In this document: in pieces, positions 1-30,448 of the stretch
Position numbering within the stretch: the stretch's first letter is position 1
Layout of the letters: the number at the start of each line of letters is the position of its first letter
Assembly: GCF_001311925.1 (NCBI RefSeq)
Contig: NZ_BBCG01000003.1
Coordinates: 92,681-124,680 of the forward strand
Source of the DNA: Cellulosilyticum ruminicola JCM 14822
GTDB taxonomy: Bacteria > Bacillota > Clostridia > Lachnospirales > Cellulosilyticaceae
Reading direction: 5' to 3'
Length of the DNA stretch: 32,000 nt
Notes under the pieces: model-generated
Told to the model about the DNA's origin: nothing
The model's database searches: none
Seen by the model: the letters and a program-made list of their open reading frames with translations, nothing else
Program-made: the position numbers and the translations under genes

Positions 1-344
1 ATATCACCAATAACATCATTCATTACGTTTGCAACCATAGGTGCATTACGTACAAGCATAATGCTTTCTTGTGCACCTTTTACTTTTGCTGATGCCATAG
101 AATGAAAACTTACTTCATCTACTGAAACAACTGCATTGCCTATACCATCAAATATAATCCCTATTAAAATAATGCTGCTAAGCATTAAAAAAGCAATAAT
201 TAATGATACATCTGTCAATAAAACTTCAAAAATATAACTAAAAAGCATTGCAATTGTAAATGTCATTCCAACTGTAATCCCTAATGATCTAGGGGTTTGC
301 TTTTTAACCTTTACTTTCTTAAACTTTATTTTTTTGGCATACAT
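1..344 (-). CDS. Membrane protein, 5' part only (runs off the window); candidate OLE-associated protein OapA
   Basis: The minus-strand frame is open from ATG 344..342 (AAAGGAG just upstream) to base 1. It translates as MYAKKIKFKKVKVKKQTPRS, then two hydrophobic helices (LGITVGMTFTIAMLFSYIF and VSLIIAFLMLSSIILIGIIF), then ...NAPMVANVMNDVIGD. It is absent from the ORF track because it is truncated. The OapA call rests only on its position directly 3' of the putative OLE RNA and on its membrane topology. Confidence 0.55.
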   Translation of the reverse strand, partial: MYAKKIKFKKVKVKKQTPRSLGITVGMTFTIAMLFSYIFEVLLTDVSLIIAFLMLSSIILIGIIFDGIGNAVVSVDEVSFHSMASAKVKGAQESIMLVRNAPMVANVMNDVIGD

Positions 345-354
345 GTACTCCTTT

Positions 355-1005
355 TACGTCGCTAATCACCCACTTCTCAAAATATAAGATAATAGTTACT
401 GTAAATTTTGTGGCATATAGTCTAGCAGGATTTCCCAAGCAAGTACTTCTTTGTCGCCAAAGAAGCGGTTTCCCTTTAAACTCACCTCAATAAGCACAAA
501 ATAAATCCTATACTTTTTGCGCCAGATCACCTTAGTAACCACACTGTAATCCAATAACTCTCTCACAAAGAACGGTCTAGGAGTTTTCCTCAAAGCAATC
601 TAACATGCTCCTATCCTCTTTTGCGAACCAGGTTTCTATCAACAATCAACTAAATCTTTTGGCCGAAAATTTAACTGTAAATTGATGTCCCCCCTTCTTC
701 ACTCAAGGCAGGCTACACTACCCACAGCTATCACCGCATGGTAGGTTTAATCCTAAGTCGTACAACATTCCCTTAAGAGTGTGCACAAGCATAGGTCTCC
801 ACGGTAAAAGGGTCAACGCCCATATGCCTTATGGATCGCCCTCAAACCTTAACCCCCAGTATCAGCCCATAACGGGGCGTTACAAGCCAACACCAGGAAC
901 TTCATCGATATGCCCTCAAACGGATTTTTAGGCCCGTCTTCAAAGCACCTCAGATTGACTAGAATACCGCATCTTATTTTTTGAAAAGCACGTCATCAGT
1001 CGCTT
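355..1005 (-). ncRNA. ole: Candidate OLE (ornate, large, extremophilic) RNA; ends approximate
   Basis: This is about 650 nt between two tightly packed genes, with only one weak 65-aa ORF (396..593). By eye G+C is roughly half here versus about one third in the flanking genes. There are many short GC-rich complementary segments, for example CCATA-loop-TATGG at 820..834. A near-consensus promoter sits at its 5' side. The context ispA ... [RNA] ... small membrane protein matches the published ole-oapA neighbourhood. I could not check the consensus structure from memory. Confidence 0.6.
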
Positions 1006-1011
1006 TTAAAC

Positions 1012-1040
1012 ATTATAACAATAAGCCTACGTTTTTTCAA
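1012..1040 (-). promoter_or_regulatory. Sigma-A type promoter reading into the putative OLE RNA
   Basis: The minus strand reads TTGAAA (1040..1035), a 17-nt spacer, then TATAAT (1017..1012), with TGT immediately upstream of the -10 (extended -10 TGn). The predicted start is near 1005. The -35 lies inside an 8-bp inverted repeat, AAGCCTAC...GTAGGCTT (1050..1023), which begins at the stop codon of the upstream gene. Confidence 0.55.
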
Positions 1041-1049
1041 CGGTAGGCT

Positions 1050-1496
1050 TTATAGGAATGCACAAAGACCAACAACAATCCCTAAAATACATCCAGCAGC
1101 TACTTGAAGTGGTGTATGTCCTAAAATTTCTTTAAGACGCTGCTGTGCATCTAAACTAGGGTCTTCTAGTACTTTTATAATTTGATTAATCATTGCAGCT
1201 TGTTTACCTGCTTGTAAACGTACATTAGCTGCATCATACATTACAATAAAACTTAAAACTGCTGCAATTGCAAAATAACTGCTATCATAACCATTAACTT
1301 CCCCCACACCTATTGCAAGTGCTGTTACAAACGAGCTATGTGAACTTGGCATGCCACCTGATGCAACAAATTTTCCAAAGTCTATTTTACCCTCTTGTAC
1401 AAATGTAATGATAAATTTTAAAAGCTGCGCAATAAACCAACTGAGTATTGCTACTCCTAGAATTCTATTTGCAAATAACTCTGCAATTGTGTTCAT
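1050..1496 (-). CDS. DUF212 / divergent PAP2 (acid phosphatase, vanadium-haloperoxidase-related) membrane protein
   Basis: 148-aa ORF with a GGMPSSHSSFVTALA motif and several hydrophobic helices, typical of the YuiD/DUF212 family. ATG start at 1496 preceded by GAGGGTGGGG. It lies 10 nt downstream of the ispA stop. Confidence 0.8.
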   Translation of the reverse strand: MNTIAELFANRILGVAILSWFIAQLLKFIITFVQEGKIDFGKFVASGGMPSSHSSFVTALAIGVGEVNGYDSSYFAIAAVLSFIVMYDAANVRLQAGKQAAMINQIIKVLEDPSLDAQQRLKEILGHTPLQVAAGCILGIVVGLCAFL

Positions 1497-1506
1497 AACC
1501 CCACCC

Positions 1507-2385
1507 TCAATTTCTTCTTGTAATAAGCTTAACTGCTATTTCTTTAAGCAGCTGCGTATCTCCATCTATGTGCTCTAATACTTTGATTGCTTTTTCTGTA
1601 AGGTCTTGTGCAATTTTATAGCATTCTTCTACAGTATAAAAACTAAGGTAAGTTGTTTTATGATTTTTACTATCACTTTGAATCGTTTTTCCTAATTCTT
1701 CTATAGTTGATGTCTCATCAAGTACATCATCTATAATTTGGAATACCTTCCCTATATATCTACCATAGGCTTCTAAAGCAGCAATCTCCATTGCCGTTCC
1801 ATGTCCAAGAATAGCGCCCATTTTAGTCGCTGCAGCTAAAAGTGCTCCTGTTTTATTAAGGTGAATAAGTTCTAATGCCTCTATACTAATTTTCTTATTT
1901 TCACTGGCCATATCTAAGATTTGCCCACCAACCATACCTTCAGCACCACTGGCCAAACTTAACACATGTGCTGCACGTACTTTTGACATATCTTCAGATA
2001 TAAGTGCATCTTCTAACATAAGATTAAAAGCTTCTGTAAGAAGTGCATCTCCTGCTAAAATGGCAGTAGCTTCATCAAACTTTTTATGATTTGTGAGTTT
2101 TCCTCTACGATAATCATCATTATCCATAGCTGGTAAATCATCATGAATAAGTGAATATGTGTGTATCATCTCTATTGCACATAAAAACTTACTAATATCC
2201 TCTTTGCCCCCTACGCTTTCATAAGCTAGTTGCATAAGTACGGGTCTAATACGTTTACCACCAGCTTGTAAGCTATAATCCATAGCTTCATAAAGTCTTC
2301 TAAAATGATTTTCACTTGAAGACGGTAATGCTGAAGCTAAATACACATTTACTTTGTCCCTATATGCTGTATAATCTTGTGCCAA
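1507..2385 (-). CDS. ispA: Farnesyl/geranyl diphosphate synthase (polyprenyl synthetase family)
   Basis: 292 aa with both aspartate-rich motifs (LIHDDLPAMDNDDYRRG and FQIIDDVLD). TTG start 6 nt after an AGGGGGA Shine-Dalgarno sequence. Follows xseB, as in Bacillus and Clostridium. Confidence 0.92.
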   Translation of the reverse strand: MAQDYTAYRDKVNVYLASALPSSSENHFRRLYEAMDYSLQAGGKRIRPVLMQLAYESVGGKEDISKFLCAIEMIHTYSLIHDDLPAMDNDDYRRGKLTNHKKFDEATAILAGDALLTEAFNLMLEDALISEDMSKVRAAHVLSLASGAEGMVGGQILDMASENKKISIEALELIHLNKTGALLAAATKMGAILGHGTAMEIAALEAYGRYIGKVFQIIDDVLDETSTIEELGKTIQSDSKNHKTTYLSFYTVEECYKIAQDLTEKAIKVLEHIDGDTQLLKEIAVKLITRRN

Positions 2386-2387
2386 AC

Positions 2388-2609
2388 TTAGTCCCCCTGT
2401 TCTATTTTGTGATATTGTCCTTGCTCATATACATAAATCTCTTGCTCTGCTTTTGCTAATATTTCATTACAAAAAGCTGCAAGCTCCATGCCTTTCTTAT
2501 ATTCTTTAATACTTTCTTCTAAAGTAATCTCACCATTTTCTAAGCGTCTTACACTTTCTTCTAGTGCTAAAATCGCCTCTTCAAAATTCTTTGCTGGTTT
2601 TCTAGCCAT
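2388..2609 (-). CDS. xseB: Exodeoxyribonuclease VII small subunit
   Basis: 73-aa helical protein (FEEAILALEESVRRLENGEITLEESIKEYKKGMEL). It overlaps the xseA stop by 8 nt. Confidence 0.92.
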   Translation of the reverse strand: MARKPAKNFEEAILALEESVRRLENGEITLEESIKEYKKGMELAAFCNEILAKAEQEIYVYEQGQYHKIEQGD

Positions 2610-3831
2610 GTTTTACTTCCTCCTTGTGTGTTACTGCCTCAGAAAATACATTTACTAAGAAACTACCATCTGCTACTGTAATTTTAAGTTTTTCTTCCTG
2701 TCTTGCATCTTTAACAGACTTTACAATTTGGCCTTTTTCATCTTCCACAAGGGCATATCCTCTTTTTAAAGTATTTAAAGGTGAGAGTTTTTCTAACTTT
2801 TGCAACGCAATCTCATATGCCTTACTGCTTTCATGCACTTTTTTTGTAAACCCATAATTTAAAGCCTGCATAAGGTGATCCACCTCCTGCATTTTACTCT
2901 TATAAAATAAATCTTTTCGTTCATAAATAGGCCTACTTGTTAAGTAGTTTAACTGATTACGTGCATTTTTAAGGCATTCTGAAATTGTATACTGCATATT
3001 TTCCTTCATACGTTTAATACGCGCTTCTAATTCTTCTTGTGATGGAATAACTATTTCTGCTGCTGCTGAAGGTGTAGCAGCTCTTTTATCACTTACAAAA
3101 TCAGAGATGGTAAAGTCTATCTCATGGCCCACCGCAGATACTATAGGAATTTCTGATTCAAAAATTGCCCATGCTACTGCCTCTTCATTGAAAGCCCATA
3201 AGTCTTCTATAGACCCACCACCTCTGCCTAATATGATTACATCTACCTTTTTTTCTTCATTCGCCATTCTAATGGCTTCTACAATCTCACCTACTGCATA
3301 TTCTCCTTGTACATGTACTGGATAAATATAAAGTGGAATACTTTTGCAACGTCTATTTGATACTTGTCTAATATCTTGAATAGCTGCACCTGTACTTGAT
3401 GTAATAACGCCTACACGCTTCGGAAACTTCGGCAACTGTCTTTTATATTTTTCATCAAATAAACCTTCATTAGCTAGTTTTAGCTTAAGGGCTTCAAATC
3501 TTTCATAAAGAATACCCATCCCTTGTTTTTCAATATCCTGCACATATGCTTGATATCCACCTGTTTTTTCATAAATGGTAATGCGTACACGTGCATATAT
3601 TTTCATGCCTTCTGTTAGTCTAAAAGAGAGCTTTTTAGCATCTCTTTCAAACATCACAGCATTAATACCAGCTCTTTCATCTTTGATTGTAAAATACACA
3701 TGTCCTGAATGATGATATTTACAGTTTGAAACTTCACCTTGAAGCCATAAATCATTTAACATATAGTCTTCTTCAATGAGATGACTCACATAACGATTCA
3801 CTTCCCATACAGATACAATTTTTCTTTTCAT
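2602..3831 (-). CDS. xseA: Exodeoxyribonuclease VII large subunit
   Basis: 409 aa with an N-terminal OB-fold pattern (VWEVNRYVSHLIE...LWLQGEVSN...HSGHVYFTIKD) and a catalytic core (GVITSSTGAAIQDI, RGGGSIEDLWAFNEE, SAVGHEIDFTISDFVSD). Confidence 0.95.
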   Translation of the reverse strand: MKRKIVSVWEVNRYVSHLIEEDYMLNDLWLQGEVSNCKYHHSGHVYFTIKDERAGINAVMFERDAKKLSFRLTEGMKIYARVRITIYEKTGGYQAYVQDIEKQGMGILYERFEALKLKLANEGLFDEKYKRQLPKFPKRVGVITSSTGAAIQDIRQVSNRRCKSIPLYIYPVHVQGEYAVGEIVEAIRMANEEKKVDVIILGRGGGSIEDLWAFNEEAVAWAIFESEIPIVSAVGHEIDFTISDFVSDKRAATPSAAAEIVIPSQEELEARIKRMKENMQYTISECLKNARNQLNYLTSRPIYERKDLFYKSKMQEVDHLMQALNYGFTKKVHESSKAYEIALQKLEKLSPLNTLKRGYALVEDEKGQIVKSVKDARQEEKLKITVADGSFLVNVFSEAVTHKEEVKHG

Positions 3832-16576: not shown

Positions 16577-17872
16577 CTAGTTATCTTCATTCTCACTAGG
16601 ATATAAATACTTATTTTCATTAAGCTTCTCATTATATTCTTCCTCAGTGAGCAATTCCATATTCATAAATGTGATAAACTCAATGTTCCCATCATCCATG
16701 CCTACAAAATACTTATAATTATAATATACTATTTCATTATTGCTTAGTAAAGCTTTAATTGACATACTCGTTACAAAACGAGGTTGCATTTTTGTGCTAT
16801 ATCTACTGGACATCACACAAATGGCCCCTGGCATAATTTCTAACTTTACAATGTTATCTTTATACGGACTTACTTCTGACATAAATATCTTCTTATAAGT
16901 TTGCTGATCTATTATAAAGTCATTTTCAAGGCCAATCTCACTTAACACATCATAACATATATGCTCATCTACCTTCTGAGCATCACACAGTTTATTAAAA
17001 AATGTCTTATCTACTTTCATTAATTTTGTAAATACTCTTTTGAGACGACCTTCTTCTTTTGAACTTACCTGATCATAATAGGGTAACCTTTTAGCATGCT
17101 GCATATTTATGATATTCACACGACTTTTGCCTTCACATAACAGTACATTTGCTTCTTCTATGCTTTTAATTTGAAGTGCTTTTATTTGAAGCACTTCAAC
17201 CCAATATTTTTGTCTTATTTTAATTTGATCTCTCTCTCCTTTTTCCATATTTCTTGCATATGTATAATCATTTTTACTAGGATATTCTTTCTCTAAATCA
17301 AGCCTTCTATTATTAGCTTTGTCTTGAATTTTAACATAATATTCTACTTCATCTTTCCAAGTATAATTTTCTAAAAATAATGCTATAGGTTCCACATCTT
17401 GCAATAATGTTATACTCACTTCATAAACTATACTTTCTTCTTTATAATCTATTGGCTTAGTTTCCAAATCTATTACTTGTGAATTATCACAAGTTACATA
17501 TTCATCAATCAATACCTTTCTGGGCAATTGTAACTTCTCTTTCAAATATTGTTGTTCTAATTTCACCAAAGCCTCTTTTGCTAAATAGCTCCCCAATCTC
17601 TCTTTGATGATTTTTTGATAGTTCTTTAAATGACTAGCATATTGACTCTGATTTTGCTTATAAGTTTTATTAAGTTCTAAAATTTCATCCTCAGTAAACG
17701 AAAAATATTGTTTAAAAAACTTTTCAAACTGCGATTTATCAGGTTTGTCAATTAACGTACACGCCTGATTTTCTATAAGAGGCGTAGGTGTTACTAAAAG
17801 TGTTTCATACTTTCCACACCCACTTATACATATTAATATCATAAATAAGCTCATACATTTTATCCGCTTCAC
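16577..17872 (-). CDS. Hypothetical lipoprotein, last gene of the pilus block
   Basis: 431 aa. GTG start 6 nt after AAGGGGGAG. Signal peptide with lipobox LICISG|C. No family recognised by eye. It starts 13 nt after the preceding gene and ends 7 nt before yqeG. Confidence 0.6.
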   Translation of the reverse strand: MKRIKCMSLFMILICISGCGKYETLLVTPTPLIENQACTLIDKPDKSQFEKFFKQYFSFTEDEILELNKTYKQNQSQYASHLKNYQKIIKERLGSYLAKEALVKLEQQYLKEKLQLPRKVLIDEYVTCDNSQVIDLETKPIDYKEESIVYEVSITLLQDVEPIALFLENYTWKDEVEYYVKIQDKANNRRLDLEKEYPSKNDYTYARNMEKGERDQIKIRQKYWVEVLQIKALQIKSIEEANVLLCEGKSRVNIINMQHAKRLPYYDQVSSKEEGRLKRVFTKLMKVDKTFFNKLCDAQKVDEHICYDVLSEIGLENDFIIDQQTYKKIFMSEVSPYKDNIVKLEIMPGAICVMSSRYSTKMQPRFVTSMSIKALLSNNEIVYYNYKYFVGMDDGNIEFITFMNMELLTEEEYNEKLNENKYLYPSENEDN

Positions 17873-17885
17873 CTATGACTCCCCC

Positions 17886-18647
17886 TTAATCACTTATCTT
17901 CTTTAGCACTTCAATCTTTAATTTAACTTCTTCCATAGCTATATCTAAAGTAGAGTTTGTCTTGTAGAAAACCTTTCCTACTGAATAATTTAATTTTTCA
18001 CTATGAAATGGCCCTAGTATTTCTTTTAAATTGTTTTTCGTGTCATATTGTGTAATTTTAAGCGCATCTAATATCTGACGATATAAAGCATTATCTGTTA
18101 AATGTACTTTTAACAGCATATCCCCATCATAACAAATCTTCAAATGTGCCCCTTGATCAATAACAAGTCCTGGACTATAACGTTCTTCTCTCATGCCACA
18201 CATACGACTTTCCCTTCTTTCCGGATTCATTCCTTCATCCTTGCCTTGAATAATTAAACTTCCATTGATTTGAATATTTCCTTTTACTCTTACATTTCCT
18301 TTACTTATAATCACCCCATTAAATACATTCAACTTCTTATCTGTAGCTATTAAAGTTAAAGTCCCATTTCCGCCATTAATTATTAAGCCAGGGCATCCTA
18401 CAAGGCTACTTCCTTCTATGTGATATAACTTACTTACATCAACTATTTCATCATTTTCATCTATAATAATTACTGGATTACTAGAAGACCAACCCTCATC
18501 ACACTTTATAGGTAAATCTTCTATTACCTCATCAAAGCCTAAAGACTGCGGAACATCTTTTTCATCTACCTTGCCATAAAATACACTTTGCTTGGCAATT
18601 ATATACCCACGAAGTCCTAAATAATCACTTTTAAATGTCTCATTTTT
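17886..18647 (-). pseudogene. 3' portion of the large PilX-like gene, displaced by a 1-nt frameshift
   Basis: The frame is open from 18647 to the stop at 17886 (253 codons), but it has no ATG, GTG or TTG before the TTG at 18332. It overlaps the last 31 nt of ORF 18617..20494 in the -1 frame. It carries the same kind of Asn/Gly-rich repeats (LIINGGNGTLTL, NVFNGVIISKGNVRVKGNIQINGSLIIQG) as the upstream ORF. Confidence 0.6.
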
Positions 18648-20494
18648 TCATGATAACACTTCCCATACATCAGTGCTTTCTTATACCATTTATACACCTC
18701 TCCTAAGCCTTCATAATACTCAGCTTTCTCTTTTGTCTGTGCTAAAATATAGTCTACCCCTTCGTAGTCTCCTCTACTCGTATAGTTTTTAAGCTGCCAT
18801 ACTGTATTTCCCTTTAAATCAGACGTATCAAATCCTTTCATAAAAAACTTTTTAGCTGTATCTTCTGATATTGCTCTTGCTAATGAAGTTGTATTGTTCG
18901 CTGAAATTTTAGCGGGTGCATAAGATGTATTTAAAATATCTGTGCTATATAATTGAATCTTATCTCTTTGAATAAATGGACTATATGGTGACTCTATCTC
19001 CAAATAACTTGCATTACTTTCCCTCTCTTCCCCCACCTCATATCCTTCCCATAAATCAATTTCACAAAAAGGTGCACCTACACTCTCCCAAAGCTTCATC
19101 GGTAAATCACTGTGTGCTACAGTTATATAAGGTTGTCCATTTACTAAAATACGATCAGTTAAAATCCGTGTATTTTCGCCTTGTACAAACACACCACTAC
19201 TCACATTAGGCTTATTCAAGCATCTCTTCTCTCCTCTAAAATCACTGCCATCACTTACACCAAAAATCGTTCCATCAATGCTTATTTGAGCTGTTCTAAT
19301 CCATTTACTAATTAATACATCGTTTTCTGCAAAAACATTTTGCCCTATATGAATGCTTAAATTACTTCCCTGCTTCTGCATTTCAAAAGGGATTTGATTA
19401 TTTCCCTCTTTATAATAATCATCTACAATGCCAACTGTATTGGCTATAAGATCTCCTCTTAAAACTTCTATTTGCGTTGCTAAACCGTATTTATCCATTT
19501 TATTAGACCATCCATTAGTGGCAATAATATTATTGACACATACTAAGTCACCATTTTTTACTTTCAGCTTTCCGCCATTACTTACAATAATACCGCCATT
19601 TCGTGTAATCTCAGAAGATAAACTTTCACCATTTCTAAAAATCGCATCTTTGTGTATCTGACCACTGCCTTTAACTTGCAAATCTCCATTTTCTACTTCT
19701 AAACTGCCACCGTTTGTAATAACTACATCTGAAAAACTAATCAAACCACTAGCTAAAATTTCTGGCGGACGTGCTGCCCAAATATAATTTTCATGAATTT
19801 GATTTGTCATATCTTGAGATATATGTATTTTCACCATTGCAACTACGCTTTGTGTATCATACAAGCTATTATCTTTTATATTTTTAGTCATTGCTGTAGC
19901 CATAATCTTAATTTGCGTTTGATCTATTACTTCTCTCCCTTTTACACTATTTTTAACAGGTAACACTTTCACCGTTATAGTTGTTCTATACGGACTTGTA
20001 TAATCACTACTAACCTCTTCAGAAATCACATACTGATTGATTAAATATTTTTGCGTAATCAACTCATAAATTCTTTTTTGCAATTGCTTCACAAATACTT
20101 CATCAACTATCTTTAATTGCCCCTTTTCATATACAAACGGTTCATATTTCTCACATAACCTATCCGCTTTCATCGCTCCTAGTTTCTCAATGTCATTTTC
20201 AAAAACTGTAAGTCTTTCTATATATTGCTTTGAAATATCTTTTATTAATAAATCTATCTCATTTTCCAACTCATTATTCATACATGCTACTTGTTTTTCC
20301 ACTGCTCCACATGCTAAATAATACGTATTACTTGTTTCTTTTCTCAAATTCACCAAATGCATTTGTAAACTTGCACTATGCATACATACCATTGTCAATA
20401 TCAATAAAGCCAACAATATAATCACAACTACAAATAAAACATTTCCATCTTGTTTCCTTTGATCATCCTCAAGTTTATTATTCTTCCCCATCAT
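18617..20494 (-). CDS. Large PilX-like / tip-associated pilus protein, 5' portion of a probably about 870-aa gene
   Basis: 625 aa. It has an N-terminal hydrophobic anchor (NVLFVVVIILLALLILTMVCM) with no G|F..E cleavage motif, as in PilX_N-type proteins. It has internal repeats ITNGGSLEVENGDLQVKG and VSNGGKLKVKNGDLVCVN. Its ATG directly abuts the TAG of the upstream gene. Confidence 0.6.
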   Translation of the reverse strand: MMGKNNKLEDDQRKQDGNVLFVVVIILLALLILTMVCMHSASLQMHLVNLRKETSNTYYLACGAVEKQVACMNNELENEIDLLIKDISKQYIERLTVFENDIEKLGAMKADRLCEKYEPFVYEKGQLKIVDEVFVKQLQKRIYELITQKYLINQYVISEEVSSDYTSPYRTTITVKVLPVKNSVKGREVIDQTQIKIMATAMTKNIKDNSLYDTQSVVAMVKIHISQDMTNQIHENYIWAARPPEILASGLISFSDVVITNGGSLEVENGDLQVKGSGQIHKDAIFRNGESLSSEITRNGGIIVSNGGKLKVKNGDLVCVNNIIATNGWSNKMDKYGLATQIEVLRGDLIANTVGIVDDYYKEGNNQIPFEMQKQGSNLSIHIGQNVFAENDVLISKWIRTAQISIDGTIFGVSDGSDFRGEKRCLNKPNVSSGVFVQGENTRILTDRILVNGQPYITVAHSDLPMKLWESVGAPFCEIDLWEGYEVGEERESNASYLEIESPYSPFIQRDKIQLYSTDILNTSYAPAKISANNTTSLARAISEDTAKKFFMKGFDTSDLKGNTVWQLKNYTSRGDYEGVDYILAQTKEKAEYYEGLGEVYKWYKKALMYGKCYHEKMRHLKVII

Positions 20495-21649
20495 CTACTC
20501 CCCAATATAAAAATCAATCATCCTTTTAATCAACTTTCCTTTTTTTCCTATAATAGGTGATTTTTCTCTTGTAGTAACCATAATAATAAAATCATCATTT
20601 CGACTATTAGACGTCGTCCTAACCAAATTAATTTTTCCATTTTCATTATTCAACACACTGACCTTAATTTTTTCATCAATTTCCGTCAATGTATCTACCC
20701 CTTCTAGGGCATCCCTGATAATACGTATTGTTTGCTCATTTGATGTTTCATTCTCAAACTGTAACACAAATGTCTTAATCTCTTGATTAAGCTCTATCTG
20801 ATTCTTTGCCTTATTGATTTTTCTTAAAAGGCCATTCACATTAACTTCAATAATGCCCGGCCTATTCTCTTTTTTAGAAGATGTAATAATATATCTTAAT
20901 CCTTCAATCTTTCCTTTTGCATCTCTTAATATAATTGGTTTAACCTTACTTTGCCCATCTTTGAAATTATTTACGACTTCTAACCGACTTACTTCATTAA
21001 ATCTATCTGCTTGTTCTAGGTCGTTTGCCGTTAATGTAATAACCTGCTTATCCGTAGGCTCTTTAGAATTCCTTTTGCCTTCATATTTTTCTATTACCTT
21101 ACTAATAGCCTTCTCTTCTTGTTCTTGCACTGTATCAAAGACCTCATTTATATCCGAATAAAAACTAATCCCCTTTGATAACTGCGCCTTATCACATACG
21201 GCTGTCTTTTCTTCTTTCCATTCTTTTAAGGGCCAAATCATGACTTCATATGCATAACGTTGTATTTCATAATCTTTTTCTAACTCTTCCATTGTCCTAT
21301 GCACAAGAAACGACTCTAACCTTAATCTATTCCCTATATTTTCAGTATTCTCTAGCCAATCTTGAATACTTCTGCTTAATTTCGAATCAGGATATACTTC
21401 AATTTGTATATTTTCTTTTTGCCTTTTAAGGCATACCTCTTCCTCTAATTGCTCCTTAACATTTGCCATTAATGCCTCTGTATAATACACGCCTTTTTCT
21501 ACTGCATTTGATGCTGCATATATCTTACGGTTTATTACAAAACTCATACAAATAGGAGCAATTACTAAAGTAACTAATGCCAAACTTATGACAAACTCTG
21601 TATAAGTAAAACCTTTATTTTTTAGTTTTTTCCCTATGGATTTTCTCAT
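20495..21649 (-). CDS. Large type IV minor pilin-like protein
   Basis: 384 aa with a class III signal, MRKSIGKKLKNKG|FTYTEFVISLALVTLVIAP, followed by a long charged domain of unknown fold. Confidence 0.7.
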   Translation of the reverse strand: MRKSIGKKLKNKGFTYTEFVISLALVTLVIAPICMSFVINRKIYAASNAVEKGVYYTEALMANVKEQLEEEVCLKRQKENIQIEVYPDSKLSRSIQDWLENTENIGNRLRLESFLVHRTMEELEKDYEIQRYAYEVMIWPLKEWKEEKTAVCDKAQLSKGISFYSDINEVFDTVQEQEEKAISKVIEKYEGKRNSKEPTDKQVITLTANDLEQADRFNEVSRLEVVNNFKDGQSKVKPIILRDAKGKIEGLRYIITSSKKENRPGIIEVNVNGLLRKINKAKNQIELNQEIKTFVLQFENETSNEQTIRIIRDALEGVDTLTEIDEKIKVSVLNNENGKINLVRTTSNSRNDDFIIMVTTREKSPIIGKKGKLIKRMIDFYIGE

Positions 21650-21672
21650 ACTATCACATCCTATTTATGCCC

Positions 21673-22839
21673 TTAACTTATTTTTATACTCCCTTTTGAT
21701 TCTCCCTTTGAAAGCTCTTCTTCAAATTCATTGTAAATATGGACATTTTCTAGCAAACTTCCATTCAACTTCACCTCTAAATCCTCTTCTAAATCATTAT
21801 AAATATAGATATATATTTGCGGCATTACTTCTTGAATTTGCCGCATAGTAGACTCAAGATAAAGTATAGGCTTTTTCACTTGTATCGTGCAGGAGTCTTG
21901 CTTAACATTCCCTTTTTCGTCTTCTATCTTTATGCTATAACCTACTTGGTCTATTTTAAGTGTCATATAAATATTTTCCTTGGAAATAAGTCCTGCGTGC
22001 TTTTCACCTGGTCCACTTAATTTATACGTTTCACCAGACGTAAAGAGATCTACTAAAGTAATTTCAAAAATATCTCTTCCACTTTCTTCATCAAATATTT
22101 CTTGACTTACTTCAATACTTTCATCTACTCTATCACTTTTTTCATTCATATCTTTATTATAAACATTCGTAAAAGGAGCTTCATTATGAATAACCCCCTG
22201 TGTTTCACTTCTATCTTTTTCTGTTTTACCTTCTTGTGTATACATTACTAACCTTAACTGTGTTTGTACAACTTCTGATAAATCTTTTCCAAAGTGTTCT
22301 TGCAAAACCTTCATCTCATCTTTATCGTTTATTTCTTGAACTTGATTTGTTAACATCACGTTTTGAATCGTTATCATTTCCCGGGCATTATTTAAATTTC
22401 TAATAAAAGTCTTTGCTTCATCATATGAGCTTATAAAGTCTAATATATAATATTGTTTAATAATATTCCCAACATCTCCTTTATAAACTTCTCTTCCTTC
22501 ATCTGTAATCTTAAACTGATATAAGCCATTTAATTTCATATATTGATTTAAGGTATACATTTGCAATACCATTGTATCCTCTTCTGGTATGCTACTTTGA
22601 AGCGCCGCTTCCTTCGTCTGCATTACCTCCAACTGTAACTGTAGCTGCTGTATTTTCCCTAGTCCTTCATTTAATTCCTGTAATTTACTTTCACCTGTTG
22701 CAATACTTTCATTTTGATCAGCTATACACTGCTTGAGCTTAGGATATCTTTGCATCATATAATAGCTTTGCAAAATTAAAATAATGCACAATATACTCAT
22801 TCCTATTTTTTGTTCCATCATTACTGAATTTTTTTTCAT
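21673..22839 (-). CDS. pilO: PilO-like pilus assembly protein with a C-terminal extension of about 200 aa
   Basis: Start chosen at ATG 22839 (AAAGGGGA Shine-Dalgarno sequence, just after the pilMN stop). It has a transmembrane helix (IGMSILCIILILQSYYMM), a coiled coil (LQELNEGLGKIQQLQLQLEVMQ) and a PilO-type core (SSIPEEDTMVLQMY...ISSYDEAKTFIRNLNN). Confidence 0.7.
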   Translation of the reverse strand: MKKNSVMMEQKIGMSILCIILILQSYYMMQRYPKLKQCIADQNESIATGESKLQELNEGLGKIQQLQLQLEVMQTKEAALQSSIPEEDTMVLQMYTLNQYMKLNGLYQFKITDEGREVYKGDVGNIIKQYYILDFISSYDEAKTFIRNLNNAREMITIQNVMLTNQVQEINDKDEMKVLQEHFGKDLSEVVQTQLRLVMYTQEGKTEKDRSETQGVIHNEAPFTNVYNKDMNEKSDRVDESIEVSQEIFDEESGRDIFEITLVDLFTSGETYKLSGPGEKHAGLISKENIYMTLKIDQVGYSIKIEDEKGNVKQDSCTIQVKKPILYLESTMRQIQEVMPQIYIYIYNDLEEDLEVKLNGSLLENVHIYNEFEEELSKGESKGSIKIS

Positions 22840-22852
22840 TATAAATCCCCTT

Positions 22853-24526
22853 TTAACTTTCTTCTTTACCTTCTTCAAATAGCATTTCTTGCTGCATTTC
22901 ATCTTCTTCATCTAAGCTTTCTTCTTCAAACAGTTCCCCATCATTTTCAATACGACTTATGTGTGGCATTATTTTCAATGTATAGTTCATTTGCTTCTGC
23001 CCGATTTCATCCTCATTATTAATTGTTAACTTTATATTTTCACGCCCATAATTATTCTGTAACATATCCATATACTGACTAATCATCTTATAATACAAAG
23101 CATTACCCTCTATAGTTACTTCATACGTATCTCCCGATTGATTTAGGTTTAATGTATCAATCGTTACACCTTTAGGAACACATGTTATAAAACTATCCAA
23201 AACACGTTCACTAATAAAAGCTGTACCTTTTAACACATTATACTGTCTTTCCCATTTTTCTAAGTTTATACGCCCATCATTCAACCCTTGCATAATTTCT
23301 TTTATTTTTCTATACTTAGGTCCTTCTATTTTTTCCTCTACAACTTTTAATCGCTCCTGTGCCTTCTGTAATTGCACTACAGGATTTATAATAAAAACAG
23401 CACAAAAAATTAAACTTTCTACTAAGCCAGCTATAACAATTATACGTTTCCATCTTTTATATTGCTGCTTATAACTATATTGTTCTAGCAATAAATTAAT
23501 TTGTTTTTTCTGCCTTCTCAAACGACTATTATAACCATTCATTACCCCCAATATATTAATAAGTAGATGTTTATATGGCATCAATATGATATTAGTTGCT
23601 TCCTCCACCTTATTTAAGCTACTTATTTTTTCTACAGGAATTTTAAAAACATCATGTATATATGATCTAATACCTTTTAGCATACTGCCCCCACCTATTA
23701 AATAAATCGTTTTAATAGGCCCTTTAGAAAAATTACTCTCATAGAACTGCAAGAGCCGCTCCATTTCTACAATAATATTTTCCTGAATCTGCTCTAATAT
23801 CATTGTACTTAATACGTCGTCTTCCATTTTCTTTTCTTGATCTGTACCATAGTTGTCATATTCATAAGTTCTTTTATGGATATGTACTATCCCAAAGTCT
23901 ATCTGTCTTGTCAGCACAGTACTGCCTTTTGAAATAATAGTCATAATAGTTGTTTCGTTTCCAACATCTATGATCATTATATTTTCATCTTGCTCGTAGG
24001 CAATATAACCATTCTTTCCAAATACAAACTCTAATGCTTCAGAAGGTACTGTTAGAAATACAAGTTCTTTCTTTATAGTTTTCATGATTTCTGTTATATT
24101 ACATATATTCTGTCTAGGCATTGCTACAATACGTATTTCAAGTTCTTCTTCCCTTACTCCATTTAAAATCTTATAATCAATTTGATAATCGCCTTTTTTC
24201 ATGGGTAAGTACTGCGTTGTATGCTTTTGTAAAGCTGCTTTAATCATCCGATCTGACATTTTACCTATCTTTATATCTCGTACAATCATCTCTTTTCCAC
24301 TAACTACTGCAACTACTTTCTTGGCCTTATACCCTTTTAGTTTTATTTCTCTTAGTAAAAGATTTTTAACAAGCTCTATATTTTGAACATCCCCATCTTT
24401 TATACTTCCTTCAGGCATCTTGATTAAAGAAAATTTCCTAATCTTAAGATTTTGAGATGTTTTAAATCCTTCAATGATTTTAATATAATAGCTTCCAAAT
24501 TCTATTCCCATAATCCATTCGCCCAT
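22853..24526 (-). CDS. pilM: PilM-PilN fusion (actin-like ATPase fold plus transmembrane helix and PilN-like domain)
   Basis: Start chosen at ATG 24526 (GAGGAGG 6 nt upstream); the track's TTG at 24541 lies inside that Shine-Dalgarno sequence. The N-terminus MGIEFGSYYIKIIEG and the IDVGNETT and LIGGGS motifs are PilM/FtsA-like. A transmembrane helix (IIVIAGLVESLIFCAVFII) follows, then a PilN-like domain and an acidic tail. Confidence 0.8.
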   Translation of the reverse strand: MGEWIMGIEFGSYYIKIIEGFKTSQNLKIRKFSLIKMPEGSIKDGDVQNIELVKNLLLREIKLKGYKAKKVVAVVSGKEMIVRDIKIGKMSDRMIKAALQKHTTQYLPMKKGDYQIDYKILNGVREEELEIRIVAMPRQNICNITEIMKTIKKELVFLTVPSEALEFVFGKNGYIAYEQDENIMIIDVGNETTIMTIISKGSTVLTRQIDFGIVHIHKRTYEYDNYGTDQEKKMEDDVLSTMILEQIQENIIVEMERLLQFYESNFSKGPIKTIYLIGGGSMLKGIRSYIHDVFKIPVEKISSLNKVEEATNIILMPYKHLLINILGVMNGYNSRLRRQKKQINLLLEQYSYKQQYKRWKRIIVIAGLVESLIFCAVFIINPVVQLQKAQERLKVVEEKIEGPKYRKIKEIMQGLNDGRINLEKWERQYNVLKGTAFISERVLDSFITCVPKGVTIDTLNLNQSGDTYEVTIEGNALYYKMISQYMDMLQNNYGRENIKLTINNEDEIGQKQMNYTLKIMPHISRIENDGELFEEESLDEEDEMQQEMLFEEGKEES

Positions 24527-28495: not shown

Positions 28496-29485
28496 TTACT
28501 GCTTATAAGTTACCCTTAACATTTCTTCCATGCTTGTATCACCATTTAAAACATGCTCATAGGCGTTTTGCCACAAAGTGTGCATACCTTCTTCTTCTGC
28601 TATTCTTTGAAGAATTTCAGTATCCCTCTCACCTTTAGCAATCATTTCCTGAAGCTTTTGGCTAATCATTAAAATTTCATAAATTGCCATTCTCCCCTTA
28701 TAACCTATGTGATTGCACGCTTTACATCCTTTAGGTTTATAAACCATTATGCCTTCTGGCACCTTATAAATAATTGCTTCAGTTGCAGTCACTTGATGTT
28801 TCTTACGACATACTGGACAAAGCCTACGTATAAGCCGCTGCGAAATAACCCCTTTTACTGCCGCTGCAACCATATAATCTTCAACCCCCATATCAATCAA
28901 TCTAGGAATCGAACTAATTGCATTATTAGTATGCAAAGTACTCAATACTAAATGCCCTGTAATTGCTGCACGTATAGCAATACCTGCCGTTTCTTCATCT
29001 CGCATTTCTCCAATCATAAGTACATCAGGATCTTGTCGTAATATAGCACGCAAAACTTTACTAAAATCCAATCCTATTTTCGTATTAACTGCCACTTGAC
29101 TAATCCCTTCTATTACATTTTCCACTGGATCCTCTACTGTAATCATATTAATGCTTTCATGATTTAACCATTTCAAAGACGCCGCTAATGTTGTAGATTT
29201 TCCACTTCCAGTAGGCCCCGTTAATAAAATAATACCATAAGGATTCTTAAGTAACTGTTTGATTTTTATATAGTCTTCCTCTTTAAAACCTATCTCAGAA
29301 AGCGTAAAGCCTCTATGATTACGATAAATAAATCTTATGACTGTTTTCTCACCATGAACAGTTGGTAAAATACTTACTCTAAGGTCAACTTGCTTCCCAT
29401 TTATTTCTTGAAATATACGTCCATCTTGTGGTAATCTTTTTTCCGCAATATCTAAATTCGCTAAGACCTTAATACATCGTGTCAT
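28496..29485 (-). CDS. pilB: Pilus assembly ATPase PilB/GspE, C-terminal ATPase part of a frameshift-split gene
   Basis: 329 aa with LDIAEKRLPQDGRI, Walker A GPTGSGKSTTL, and the tetracysteine motif CPVC...CKAC. The frame stays open upstream of its ATG back to 29539 and encodes IDGYLRKITEVKNETLEN. Confidence 0.88.
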   Translation of the reverse strand: MTRCIKVLANLDIAEKRLPQDGRIFQEINGKQVDLRVSILPTVHGEKTVIRFIYRNHRGFTLSEIGFKEEDYIKIKQLLKNPYGIILLTGPTGSGKSTTLAASLKWLNHESINMITVEDPVENVIEGISQVAVNTKIGLDFSKVLRAILRQDPDVLMIGEMRDEETAGIAIRAAITGHLVLSTLHTNNAISSIPRLIDMGVEDYMVAAAVKGVISQRLIRRLCPVCRKKHQVTATEAIIYKVPEGIMVYKPKGCKACNHIGYKGRMAIYEILMISQKLQEMIAKGERDTEILQRIAEEEGMHTLWQNAYEHVLNGDTSMEEMLRVTYKQ

Positions 29486-29535
29486 ATTCTCTAATGTCTC
29501 GTTCTTAACTTCAGTAATTTTCCTGAGATATCCAT

Positions 29536-30030
29536 CTATCTATAACGAATACGCGCACCCTTTTCAAACGGCTCAATATGCATATCTGAAGCCTCATTTA
29601 AAACACAACGTTCCAACAGATTATGAATAAGTTTCATAGAGGCACTAACTTCTTTATCTTCTATTTTATATTCCATATGTGCTACTGTTTCATCCCGTAT
29701 TTCCTTTTCAAATTGATTCACAATGTTTTTGGTTTGTATAAATGAATAAAATTGTTCTATCATATACTGAATGTTTTTTTCTGAGGCGCGAACAGGTATG
29801 ATTTCCATATTGGTACTAAGACGAAGGTCATCTAATGCATATATATTAAACGGATCTAACATGGCCACTTTAAGCTTATTATCAAACTTTTCAAATGCAA
29901 TCATTTTATGCTTTCTTGCCAAAAATTCTGGTACTTTAGTAACACTTTCTAAATCAATCATCTCTTGCTCTAAATTTATTTCTTGCACATTTAAACCACT
30001 ATAACTTGTTTTACTATTTTCTTCGTTCAT
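29536..30030 (-). CDS. pilB: PilB/GspE N-terminal (T2SSE_N-type) part of a frameshift-split gene
   Basis: 164 aa with LARKHKMIAFEKFDNKLKVAMLDPFNIYALDDLRL, ending ...SDMHIEPFEKGARIRYR*. That is exactly where PilB homologues continue with IDG.L. Confidence 0.85.
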   Translation of the reverse strand: MNEENSKTSYSGLNVQEINLEQEMIDLESVTKVPEFLARKHKMIAFEKFDNKLKVAMLDPFNIYALDDLRLSTNMEIIPVRASEKNIQYMIEQFYSFIQTKNIVNQFEKEIRDETVAHMEYKIEDKEVSASMKLIHNLLERCVLNEASDMHIEPFEKGARIRYR

Positions 30031-30107
30031 TTATAACCTCCTTACAATTCATTATTTATTAGTAATAGCCTAAATTATTTTATATTTCCAAATTCTTCTT
30101 GTAATAT

Positions 30108-30135
30108 ATTATAAGCTTTTACAAATATTTTACAA
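30108..30135 (-). promoter_or_regulatory. Candidate sigma-A promoter of the pilus operon
   Basis: The minus strand reads TTGTAA (30135..30130), a 16-nt spacer, then TATAAT (30113..30108), about 75 nt upstream of the pilB ATG. The region is very AT-rich, so a chance match is possible. Confidence 0.35.
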
Positions 30136-30228
30136 TACCATTTTCTCAATAATTTACATTTTTTCTTTATATTATTCATATTTCAATAAGTAATTAAAAT
30201 TTTATTAAGTATATAATAACTTTTTGCA

Positions 30229-30255
30229 TAAAAAATAGGGACTCTTCTAAGCCCC
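30229..30255 (-). terminator. Rho-independent terminator insulating the pilus operon from the upstream gene
   Basis: The minus strand reads GGGGCTTAGAAGAGTCCC (6-bp stem, 6-nt loop; 30255..30238), followed by TATTTTTT. Confidence 0.65.
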
Positions 30256-30329
30256 TTCAGATTGTTGACAAACGAATTTTTTGAAAATAATTTCATCAAT
30301 TAAGTGAAGATTATTCAATGAAACCCATT

Positions 30330-30377
30330 AAAATAAGGGTAAAAAGAGCTATTTAAGCCTCCTTTTACCCTTATTTT
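30330..30377. repeat. Strong inverted repeat (15-bp stem, 18-nt loop)
   Basis: AAAATAAGGGTAAAA (30330..30344) pairs perfectly with TTTTACCCTTATTTT (30363..30377). It could act as a terminator in either direction, or be the core of a small inserted element. Confidence 0.6.
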
Positions 30378-30448
30378 CTATTTCTAGGCTATTAAAAGAT
30401 TACAGAAAAGTTAATTGTCTACAGACTGTAGTGACTCTTCTAAGTCCC

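What the first reader, a model, noticed from the sequence alone, without database searches (positions are those of the whole stretch)
346..1049. Large structured non-coding RNA between ispA/DUF212 and a small membrane protein: probable OLE RNA
This window is otherwise packed gene to gene, with gaps of 0-60 nt. Here about 700 nt contain only one unconvincing 65-aa ORF. By eye the G+C content rises from about one third to about one half. The region is full of short GC-rich complementary segments, and a near-consensus promoter sits at its 5' edge. The published neighbourhood of OLE RNA in anaerobic and extremophilic Firmicutes is xseA-xseB-ispA-ole-oapA-dxs, which is the context seen here. OLE is one of the largest bacterial ncRNAs whose biochemical role is still unclear. 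It forms a membrane-associated RNP and has been linked to alcohol, cold and Mg2+ stress. A new representative in a xylanolytic spore former would therefore be useful.
Basis: partly seen in the sequence, partly recalled or inferred. Interest (0 to 1): 0.8.

Follow-up and report, generated by a model that had tools for sequence, protein, structure and literature searches.

The report
OLE RNA gene next to oapA
The 700-base gap holds a full-length copy of OLE RNA, a large and well-known bacterial non-coding RNA that works at the cell membrane with the protein OapA; this is a routine database match in Cellulosilyticum ruminicola, not a new kind of element.

Summary
The observation and the interpretation both hold. 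Window 370..991 (minus strand) matches Rfam RF01071 (OLE RNA) over the whole model (1-616/616) at 420.3 bits, against a gathering score of 50. No other family matches, even at E<=1. In an independent MAFFT alignment with 40 OLE loci found through OapA, 87.5% of pair cells are paired (42-46% when partners are slid), and 132 of 168 pairs show compensatory changes. The 65-aa ORF is broken in the relatives and shows no codon periodicity. The context is asp23-nusB-xseA-xseB-ispA-DUF212-[promoter]-ole-oapA; relatives continue with dxs-tlyA-nadK-argR. The promoter TTGAAA-17-TGnTATAAT is conserved in five of the eight closest relatives. There is no terminator before oapA. The host is Cellulosilyticum ruminicola.

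Four details go beyond the Rfam call:
- A long closing helix P1, plus P2 and P3, which Rfam does not annotate.
- The P13 hairpin lacks the bulge and GNRA tetraloop that form the main OapB site in H. halodurans. Most close relatives lack it too.
- A DUF212 (PAP2-like) gene sits between ispA and ole in 22 of 42 comparable loci.
- The window differs from other assemblies only by one-base indels, which are probably sequencing errors.

Verdict: an ordinary member of a known class, of low interest.

The parts
1012..1040 (-). Sigma-70-type promoter with extended -10: TTGAAA (1040-1035), 17-nt spacer, TG (1020-1019), TATAAT (1017-1012). The inferred transcription start is near 1005.
   Evidence: Consensus scan, 11 of 12 positions. 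The same hexamers sit at the same distance from OLE in L003, L023, L006, L005 and L008 while the spacer diverges, and TGnTATAAT lies directly upstream of OLE in many distant loci. The start site is inferred, not measured.
370..991 (-). OLE RNA, full-length type (Rfam RF01071, model positions 1-616).
   Evidence: 420.3 bits, E 2.3e-120. It is the only family matching at E<=1. 138 of 154 model pairs are canonical. Covariation in alignment A2 supports the structure.
972..1002 (-). 5' strand of closing helix P1 (OLE nt -11 to 20). It pairs with 360-389. Rfam does not annotate this helix.
   Evidence: For the core (988-972 with 389-373), 15 of 16 pairs show changes on both sides across 41 sequences (helix 1). 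The extension into the leader and trailer is 88.8% paired in 9 Cellulosilyticaceae sequences against 40-52% when slid, but shows little covariation.
360..389 (-). 3' strand of closing helix P1. It ends about 8 nt before the oapA ribosome-binding site.
944..963 (-). 5' strands of P2 (UCUAG, 963-959) and P3/P3.1 (957-944). Partners are at 580-576 and 609-596. P3/P3.1 has 13 base pairs plus one G.G mismatch. This is the helix proposed in the literature to span the membrane.
   Evidence: 84.7% of cells are paired against 29-45% when slid, and all 9 P3.1 pairs covary. The role of the helix comes from PMC12265935, not from a test here.
576..609 (-). 3' strands of P3.1/P3 (609-596) and P2 (580-576), flanking the small hairpin GAG-GAAAA-CUC (591-581).
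919..938 (-). P4 hairpin with the conserved A-rich loop CCUAAAAA. The literature identifies this loop as a dimer contact.
   Evidence: Matches the Rfam consensus. The loop is invariant or nearly so in A2. The role comes from PMC12265935 and PMC12286853.
900..909 (-). J4a/5 segment AUCGAUGAAG, the 5' half of the k-turn bound by OapC in H. halodurans.
   Evidence: Identical to the consensus, with C85-G92 invariant in 41 sequences. The role comes from PMC9723947.
803..899 (-). P5/P5.1 (899-853) and P6/P6.1 (848-803). The P6.1 loop is one base shorter than in the L001 assembly and in relatives.
   Evidence: (helices 3-5)
614..795 (-). P7 (795-752), P8 (744-719) and the long P9 (709-614), with the palindromic loop GGCC at 664-661. 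All three are present, so this is the 'full-length' type and not variant 1 or 2.
   Evidence: GGCC is at least 90% conserved. The types are defined in PMC11332333.
391..562 (-). 3' domain (about P12-P15): nested helices 562-552/401-391, 543-539/413-409 and 526-521/426-421, and P14/P14.1 with a GCGA tetraloop at 457-454.
   Evidence: Helices 18-23 are 89-99.6% paired with extensive compensatory change. Helix names are approximate and taken from PMC7936274.
488..519 (-). Atypical P13: a 13-bp AU-rich hairpin with a UUUA loop, in place of the usual roughly 8-bp bulged stem capped by a GNRA tetraloop (the main OapB site).
   Evidence: Rfam leaves 22 nt unaligned here against 11 in the model. The fold is -8.2 kcal/mol with no GNRA. 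A GNRA cap is present in 27 of 41 aligned OLEs by the automatic call (and by eye GUGA/GUAA caps also in L009, L037 and L042, which the fold misassigned) but absent in the window and in L003-L008.
396..593 (-). 65-aa ORF inside OLE. It is not a gene.
   Evidence: No Pfam hit. It has stops or frameshifts in nearly all relatives, including the closest, and substitutions by codon position are 99/140/106.
1..355 (-). Ribosome-binding site AAAAGGAG (355-348) and the 5' part of oapA (ATG 344 as the window reads; probably ATG 340 in the real genome). The gene runs off the window edge.
   Evidence: 114 of 114 residues are identical to the NCBI Cellulosilyticum ruminicola protein P0002. There are 2,674 homologues. 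A weak CNNM/CorB-type membrane-domain hit was found in the L008 orthologue.
1050..1496 (-). DUF212 (divergent PAP2 family) membrane protein gene between ispA and ole.
   Evidence: Pfam PF02681, 169.8 bits. It holds the same position in 22 of 42 related loci that have ispA upstream.
1507..3831 (-). ispA (1507-2385), xseB (2388-2609) and xseA (2602-3831), the usual upstream neighbours of ole.
   Evidence: Pfam polyprenyl_synt, Exonuc_VII_S and Exonuc_VII_L.

Best explanation
Identity (shown): window 370-991 on the minus strand encodes a full-length OLE (ornate, large, extremophilic) RNA of Cellulosilyticum ruminicola. It lies immediately upstream of its partner gene oapA.

Expression (inferred): the RNA has its own extended -10 sigma-70-type promoter and starts near 1005. 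No terminator precedes oapA, so ole and oapA are probably one transcript. Read-through from ispA-DUF212 is also possible.

Fold (shown by the covariance model and by covariation): the class architecture is present. A long helix P1 closes the 5' and 3' ends. P2 and the roughly 14-position P3/P3.1 helix lead into domain 1 (P4-P9), and a 3' domain (P12-P15) follows.

Assembly and function (inferred from work in H. halodurans, C. acetobutylicum and C. botulinum, not tested here): two RNAs dimerise through the P4 A-rich loops, the P5.1/P6.1 loops and the palindromic P9 loop GGCC. OapA binds the RNA and holds it at or across the membrane. OapC binds the k-turn formed by J4a/5. The particle helps the cell cope with stresses such as cold, short-chain alcohols, excess Mg2+ and poor carbon sources. 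Its chemistry is unknown.

Local peculiarity (the absence is shown; its consequence is inferred): the principal OapB site is missing. OapB either binds elsewhere, for example at the retained P14.1 GCGA loop, or is not part of the particle in this lineage.
For: - Rfam: RF01071 at 420.3 bits over the full model, the only family matching at E<=1.
- Pairs: 138 of 154 model pairs are canonical in this sequence.
- Covariation: in MAFFT alignment A2 of 41 loci, 87.5% of cells are paired against 42-46% when slid; 132 of 168 pairs have changes on both sides; 0 of 500 shuffles reach the observed values.
- P2 and P3/P3.1: 84.7% paired against 29-45% when slid.
- Conserved motifs present: CCUAAAAA, AUCGAUGAAG, GGCC, GGGAAAUCC and others.
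- oapA lies directly downstream on the same strand and is 100% identical to the NCBI C. ruminicola protein.
- OLE was found upstream of oapA in 77 of the 80 loci retrieved through OapA, and all 15 tested with Rfam score 422-538 bits.
- The promoter is conserved in five of the eight closest relatives.
- No terminator-like site lies on the minus strand in 1-2600.
- The host belongs to Bacillota, Clostridia.
Against: - Nothing argues against the identity.
- The score of 420 bits is the lowest among the loci tested.
- P13 lacks the GNRA and bulge motif.
- The middle of P6 has two U.U mismatches, and P6 does not carry a perfect CCUCC anti-Shine-Dalgarno mimic (sequence).
- Expression, processing, dimerisation, membrane location, protein partners and phenotype were not and could not be tested here. 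All are carried over from other species.
- The promoter-scan hit count equals the shuffle expectation, so the promoter rests on conservation alone.
Confidence: 0.95

Rival explanations
1. The gap hides a missed protein-coding gene, the 65-aa ORF at 396..593 (-).
For: The ORF exists, on the same strand as its neighbours.
Against: It has no Pfam hit. It uses a TTG start and lies wholly inside a 420-bit RNA match. In 40 relatives the aligned stretch carries stops or frameshifts in nearly all, including the closest, L003 (2 stops, length not a multiple of 3). Substitutions by codon position are 99/140/106, with no third-position excess.
Confidence: 0.01
2. It is a decaying, non-functional relic of OLE rather than a working RNA.
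For: It has the lowest Rfam score among the loci tested. The OapB site in P13 is lost. There are one-base deletions relative to the consensus in P9 and in the P6.1 loop.
Against: All helices and nearly all invariant nucleotides are retained. The whole family Cellulosilyticaceae keeps ole, oapA and, in most members, the promoter, with compensatory changes between species; that pattern indicates purifying selection. The one-base deletions are absent from two independent assemblies of the same sequence, which score higher (427 and 433.5 bits), so they look like sequencing errors. oapA is intact.
Confidence: 0.03
3. OLE here has no promoter of its own and is made only by read-through and processing of the long xseA-ispA-DUF212 operon transcript, as reported for H. 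halodurans. On this reading the promoter match is chance.
For: The gene cluster is transcribed as one polycistronic RNA in H. halodurans (PMC12265935). The number of promoter-like sites in 1-2600 equals the shuffle expectation. No strong terminator follows DUF212.
Against: TTGAAA-17-TGnTATAAT sits at the same distance from OLE in five of the eight closest relatives while the spacer and flanks diverge, and an extended -10 lies directly upstream of OLE in many distant loci. The two routes do not exclude each other.
Confidence: 0.12
4. It is a different structured RNA, such as a group II intron remnant or a riboswitch leader of oapA.
For: None was found. The only support is its position as a 5' leader of oapA.
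Against: cmscan against 4,227 Rfam families returns only OLE, at the gathering thresholds over the whole window and at E<=1 over 250-1150.
Confidence: 0.005

Closest known systems
Full-length OLE RNA (Rfam RF01071; studied in Halalkalibacterium halodurans, Clostridium acetobutylicum and C. botulinum)
   Same: It matches the full model. P1-P9 and the 3' domain are present, as are the conserved loops used for dimerisation (P4 A-rich loop, P9 GGCC) and the k-turn sequence. oapA lies immediately downstream, xseA-xseB-ispA lie upstream, and the host is an anaerobic spore-forming member of Bacillota.
   Different: P13 lacks the bulged stem and GNRA tetraloop that bind OapB. A DUF212 gene is inserted between ispA and ole. 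A conserved promoter lies directly upstream of the RNA. P1 is unusually long, about 29 positions. The Rfam score is about 90-120 bits lower than in the Bacilli tested.
OLE 'variant 1' RNAs (TANB77 clade; Fernando and Breaker 2024, PMC11332333)
   Same: These RNAs also often lack the OapB-binding nucleotides at the end of P13.
   Different: Variant 1 has shortened P7, P8 and P9 and occurs in reduced genomes that mostly lack OapB and OapC. Here P7, P8 and the long P9 are all present and align to the full model.
Other large ornate bacterial RNAs (ROOL, GOLLD, raiA motif)
   Same: They are also large, highly structured non-coding RNAs of unknown chemistry, and ROOL and GOLLD form homo-oligomers (PMC12286853).
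   Different: They share no sequence or structure with this region: none of these Rfam families matches it. They are not linked to oapA.

Membership tests
OLE RNA (RF01071) | Scores above the curated gathering threshold of the family covariance model over most of the model | tested here: met
   420.3 bits against 50, model positions 1-616 of 616, not truncated.
OLE RNA (RF01071) | Ornate secondary structure of about 25 helices, maintained by covariation | tested here: met
   138 of 154 model pairs are canonical. In an alignment not fitted to the structure, 87.5% of cells are paired against 42-46% when slid, and 132 of 168 pairs have compensatory change. P2 and P3 are also supported.
OLE RNA (RF01071) | Roughly a quarter of nucleotides almost invariant across the class | tested here: met
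   A2 has about 150 invariant and about 80 nearly invariant columns among 41 sequences, and the window shares them.
OLE RNA (RF01071) | oapA (a four-helix membrane protein gene) immediately downstream on the same strand | tested here: met
   The ribosome-binding site and ATG lie 26-30 nt after the Rfam match. The protein is 100% identical to C. ruminicola P0002 and has 2,674 homologues. 77 of 80 loci retrieved through it carry OLE upstream.
OLE RNA (RF01071) | Host is an anaerobic or extremophilic member of Bacillota | tested here: met
   Cellulosilyticum ruminicola, in Clostridia, Lachnospirales. A spoIIIA operon is in the window.
OLE RNA (RF01071) | Typical gene cluster xseA-xseB-ispA-ole-oapA-dxs | tested here: met
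   The upstream part is in the window, with DUF212 inserted. dxs-tlyA-nadK-argR was seen only in the relative L008, because the window ends inside oapA.
OLE RNA (RF01071) | Sequences that form the OapC k-turn (J4a/5, J5/6, P6 shoulder) | tested here: met
   AUCGAUGAAG and GGGGGUUAAGG are present and match the consensus, and the J4a/5 bases are invariant in A2. This is a sequence test only; protein binding cannot be tested here.
OLE RNA (RF01071) | P13 hairpin with a single-nucleotide bulge and a GNRA tetraloop (primary OapB site; present in most but not all members) | tested here: not met
   The window has a 13-bp AU-rich hairpin with a UUUA loop. A GNRA cap is present in at least 27 of 41 aligned OLEs and absent from the window and from L003-L008. 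The literature already records members without it (PMC11332333), so this does not exclude membership.
OLE RNA (RF01071) | Dimerisation loops: P4 A-rich loop and palindromic P9 loop | tested here: met
   CCUAAAAA (933-926) and GGCC (664-661) are present and conserved. This is a sequence test only.
OLE RNA (RF01071) | Abundant stable RNA of about 600 nt, localised to the membrane through OapA, with stress phenotypes on deletion | not testable with these tools
   This needs RNA-seq or Northern blots, fractionation and genetics in C. ruminicola.
OLE 'full-length' type versus variants 1 and 2 | P7, P8 and the long P9 are present | tested here: met
   All three align to the model: 795-752, 744-719 and 709-614.

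The most novel reading that the evidence does not exclude
The Cellulosilyticaceae carry a structurally full-length OLE RNA that has given up the P13 bulge and GNRA site for OapB. In this clade the P13 region differs in length and sequence even between close relatives. Their OLE particle would then work without OapB, or with OapB moved to the P14.1 GCGA loop. Separately, a PAP2-like membrane phosphatase gene (DUF212) sits between ispA and ole in half of the comparable loci. This could point to a functional tie between the OLE particle and polyprenyl-phosphate (cell-envelope lipid carrier) metabolism. Neither point is reported in the papers I could search.
Probability: 0.25. Interest if true: 0.4.

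Novelty: new member of a known kind. Interest (0 to 1): 0.2.

Why it matters
For annotation, it fills the largest unannotated gap in the window with a known RNA gene. It also removes a spurious ORF and corrects the probable oapA start.

For OLE biology the gain is small. It adds one more representative from a cultivable, cellulolytic rumen anaerobe. It also shows that loss of the canonical OapB site is not confined to the reduced 'variant 1' RNAs, and that the dedicated promoter, the long closing helix and the DUF212 neighbour are conserved within this clade.

It does not make the central open question, what OLE does chemically, any more testable than it already is in H. halodurans.

Tried and rejected
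- A missed CDS was rejected.
- Other RNA families were rejected: the Rfam search at E<=1 returned only OLE.
- I checked whether the leader motif CUGAUGAC and the trailer motif GUGAU form a C/D-like k-turn in the extended P1. By hand the mismatches are two G.G, not tandem G.A, so I dropped the idea (sequence).
- I checked whether the P5.1 and P6.1 loops covary between clades. The clade has GCCCC with GGGC where others have GCCCA with UGGC, but L011 and L013 break the pattern, so I make no claim.
- The hairpin at 1047-1020 that overlaps the -35 hexamer is present only in the window and L003 and has no T-run, so I do not treat it as a terminator.
- I tried to learn whether C. ruminicola encodes OapB. 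This remains unresolved.
- A look-up of the NCBI OapA (P0002) to get the downstream DNA of the same genome found no record.
- Literature searches for DUF212/YuiD function and for 'OLE RNA' together with Cellulosilyticum returned nothing useful.

Full report
1. THE OBSERVATION

On the minus strand, the DUF212 gene ends at 1050 and the next gene starts at 344. That leaves 705 nt without a credible CDS. This is the largest of 35 intergenic gaps in the window, whose median is 17 nt. Several other gaps of 116-418 nt exist, so 'gaps of 0-60 nt' overstates how tightly the genes are packed.

G+C is 42.3% for 370-991 against 32.7% for the whole window, and it peaks at 50.5% in 701-900. Only 0.7% of 622-nt windows reach this value, and all of them overlap this region.

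The 65-aa ORF at 396..593 (-) is real as a string.

A promoter-like site lies at the 5' edge: TTGAAA, 17 nt, TATAAT with an upstream TG, at 1040..1012. It matches 11 of 12 positions.

2. WHAT IT IS

A scan of the whole window against 4,227 Rfam families gives a single hit. It is RF01071, OLE RNA, at 370-991 on the minus strand. The score is 420.3 bits (gathering score 50) with E 2.3e-120, and the match covers model positions 1-616 of 616 without truncation. A permissive rescan of 250-1150 at E<=1 again returns only OLE.

I transferred the Rfam consensus structure onto the sequence. Of the 154 model pairs that have bases on both sides, 138 are canonical.

3. INDEPENDENT SUPPORT FROM RELATIVES

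The downstream ORF is oapA. Its 114 residues inside the window are identical to the NCBI Cellulosilyticum ruminicola protein P0002. The species belongs to Bacillota, Clostridia, Lachnospirales, Cellulosilyticaceae.

An alignment of 12 OapA homologues retrieved 80 genomic loci. A sequence-only nhmmer search with the window's OLE found an OLE on the same strand directly upstream of oapA in 77 of these 80. All 15 loci that I tested with Rfam score 422-538 bits over the full model.

I then built a plain MAFFT alignment, not fitted to any structure, of the window plus 40 full-length relatives (A2) and counted pairs on the window-derived structure:
- 87.5% of 6,718 pair cells are standard pairs, against 42-46% when the 3' partners are slid by 1-3 columns.
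- 132 of 168 pairs show changes on both sides.
- 0 of 500 shuffles reach the observed value on any measure.

4. THE CODING RIVAL

The stretch aligned to the 65-aa ORF carries stop codons, or has a length that is not a multiple of three, in nearly all relatives. This includes the closest one, L003, at 92% DNA identity. Substitutions among the eight closest relatives fall 99/140/106 on codon positions 1, 2 and 3, so there is no third-position excess. The ORF also has no Pfam hit. It is not a gene.

5. ANATOMY BEYOND THE RFAM ANNOTATION

OLE nucleotide n corresponds to window position 992 - n.

(a) P1. A closing helix pairs the 5' and 3' ends (988-972 with 389-373). In 41 sequences, 15 of its 16 pairs change on both sides (helix 1). 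In the nine Cellulosilyticaceae sequences the pairing continues into the leader and trailer, to about 1002 and 360. There, 24 positions are 88.8% paired against 40-52% when slid. Few changes are compensatory, so this extension rests on conserved pairing potential rather than on covariation.

(b) P2 and P3/P3.1. P2 (UCUAG/CUAGA, 963-959 with 580-576) and P3/P3.1 (957-944 with 609-596; 13 base pairs plus one G.G) are 84.7% paired against 29-45% when slid. All nine P3.1 pairs covary. P3/P3.1 is the helix that Lyon and Breaker (PMC12265935) propose spans the membrane. Its length here fits their estimate of about 14 bp.

(c) Conserved motifs. The motifs assigned roles in other species are present:
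- The P4 A-rich loop, CCUAAAAA.
- J4a/5, AUCGAUGAAG, which forms the OapC k-turn (PMC9723947).
- The palindromic P9 loop GGCC at 664-661, a symmetric kissing loop in the cryo-EM dimer (PMC12286853).
- The P14.1 GCGA tetraloop at 457-454.
These are seen.

(d) Type. P7, P8 and the long P9 are all present. This is therefore the 'full-length' type and not variant 1 or 2 of Fernando and Breaker (PMC11332333).

6. ONE REAL DEPARTURE: P13

In H. halodurans, OapB binds a bulged P13 stem capped by a GNRA tetraloop (PMC7936274). Rfam leaves 22 nt of the window unaligned at this point, against 11 in the model. I folded the P13 segment of each aligned sequence. The canonical motif, a stem with a one-base bulge capped by G-GNRA-C, is present in at least 27 of 41.

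The window instead has a 13-bp AU-rich hairpin with a UUUA loop (519-488). Its closest relatives (L003 to L008) have short hairpins that lack GNRA and differ from one another. The region therefore evolves freely in this clade.

I could not determine whether these genomes encode OapB.

P6 is also less regular than the consensus. It has two U.U mismatches, and its 3' strand reads CCCUUUUACC rather than a CCUCC anti-Shine-Dalgarno mimic (bS21 site from PMC12054373).

7. EXPRESSION SIGNALS

The -35 and extended -10 elements lie at the same distance from OLE in L003, L023, L006, L005 and L008, although the spacer and the flanking sequence differ. A TGnTATAAT motif lies directly upstream of OLE in many distant loci as well. 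This conservation supports the promoter. The scan alone does not, because the number of sites it found equals the shuffle expectation.

No terminator-like site lies on the minus strand between the promoter and the window edge. The ribosome-binding site GGAG (351-348) follows the end of P1 by about 8 nt. I infer an ole-oapA co-transcript. Read-through from upstream is also possible, and 3' processing may occur as reported in H. halodurans (PMC11332333). None of this was measured.

8. CONTEXT

Upstream on the same strand lie DUF212 (a divergent PAP2 family), ispA, xseB, xseA, nusB and asp23, followed by the spoIIIAA-AH operon. In the relative L008, oapA is followed by dxs, a tlyA/FtsJ-type methyltransferase gene, nadK and argR.

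DUF212 lies between ispA and ole in 22 of the 42 retrieved loci that have ispA upstream. These include Cellulosilyticaceae, Epulonipiscium, Vallitaleaceae and Acidaminobacter. None of the Bacilli loci has it. I found no mention of this neighbour in the OLE papers I could read and no functional literature on DUF212.

9. DATA QUALITY

Two independent assemblies of the same sequence are available: L001 from SRR3479029 and L002 from DRR017713. They differ from the window only by single-base insertions, most of them in runs of one base:
- +U near 670 in distal P9, in both assemblies.
- +A near 336 (A7 becomes A8), in both assemblies.
- +G near 829 in the P6.1 loop, in L001 only.
- +C near 362, in L001 only.

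Each OLE insertion moves the RNA towards the family consensus. The Rfam scores are 427.1 bits for L002 and 433.5 bits for L001, against 420.3 for the window.

The A8 version makes oapA start at the second ATG (340). That start gives MPKKIKFKK, as in all relatives, and has a normal 7-nt spacing from the ribosome-binding site. The window's A7 version keeps the frame open only from ATG 344, which gives MYAKKIK, the start annotated at NCBI. The window therefore probably carries homopolymer under-calls.

10. VERDICT

The element is an ordinary, full-length member of a well-studied RNA class. Any Rfam-based annotation would find it, and the class has already been catalogued in 2,822 genomes (PMC11332333). 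I found no paper that names Cellulosilyticum in this connection.

The clade-specific features are incremental: no canonical OapB site, a dedicated conserved promoter, a long P1, and the DUF212 neighbour. Interest is low. The identity is essentially certain. The functional account is carried over from other species.

Noticed in passing
window ~829, ~670, ~362, ~336 (compared with L001 and L002): The window differs from two independent assemblies of the same sequence only by one-base deletions, most of them in runs of one base. The versions with the extra bases score higher against the OLE model (427 and 433.5 bits against 420.3). This points to homopolymer sequencing errors in the window's assembly.
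   Followed up: partly
window 331-344: The oapA start has overlapping ATGs (ATGTATG) followed by an A-run. With A7 (the window) only ATG 344 is in frame, giving MYAKKIK, the NCBI annotation. With A8 (L001, L002) ATG 340 is in frame, giving MPKKIK as in all relatives, with better spacing from the ribosome-binding site. The annotated start is probably an artefact of a one-base error.
   Followed up: partly
window 1050-1496 (-); loci L003-L011, L013-L015, L017, L023-L025, L032, L036, L040, L045, L067, L068: A DUF212 (divergent PAP2) membrane protein gene sits between ispA and ole in 22 of 42 comparable loci from several clostridial families, but in none of the Bacilli loci. It has no NCBIfam name, and I found no functional literature on it.
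   Followed up: partly
window 28496-30030 (-): The type IV pilus ATPase PilB/GspE is split into two ORFs: 29536-30030 matches the N-terminal part of the family and 28496-29485 matches the C-terminal part. This is either a frameshift pseudogene or another sequencing error.
   Followed up: no
window 16577-22911 (-): Several large ORFs beside the pilus genes have no NCBIfam hit: 431, 148, 625, 384 and 412 aa. The 431-aa and 625-aa ORFs were also tried against Pfam, without a hit.
   Followed up: no
window 30031-30448 and 18333-18616: These are the next-largest intergenic gaps (418 and 284 nt). They have no Rfam match at gathering thresholds, and I did not examine them further.
   Followed up: no
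window 1020-1047 (-): A 9-bp hairpin (AAGCCUACG...CGUAGGCUU) follows the DUF212 stop codon, and the -35 hexamer of the OLE promoter lies in its loop. It is present in the window and L003 only and has no T-run.
   Followed up: partly
window 992-1002 and 360-371 (-); alignment A3: The leader motif GCGACUGAUGAC and the trailer motif GGGUGAU are conserved in the Cellulosilyticaceae. They pair with an invariant G.G mismatch (A3 columns 14 and 77) in all nine sequences. The reason for the conserved mismatch is unknown.
   Followed up: partly
L041 (CAVJLG010000040.1): A contig labelled Barnesiella intestinihominis (Bacteroidota) carries nusB-xseA-xseB-ispA-ole-oapA of Bacillota type. This is probably bin contamination, in line with the remark in PMC11332333 about OLE hits outside Bacillota.
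   Followed up: no
window 31377-32000 (-): A glycoside hydrolase family 11 (xylanase) gene lies at the right edge of the window.
   Followed up: no
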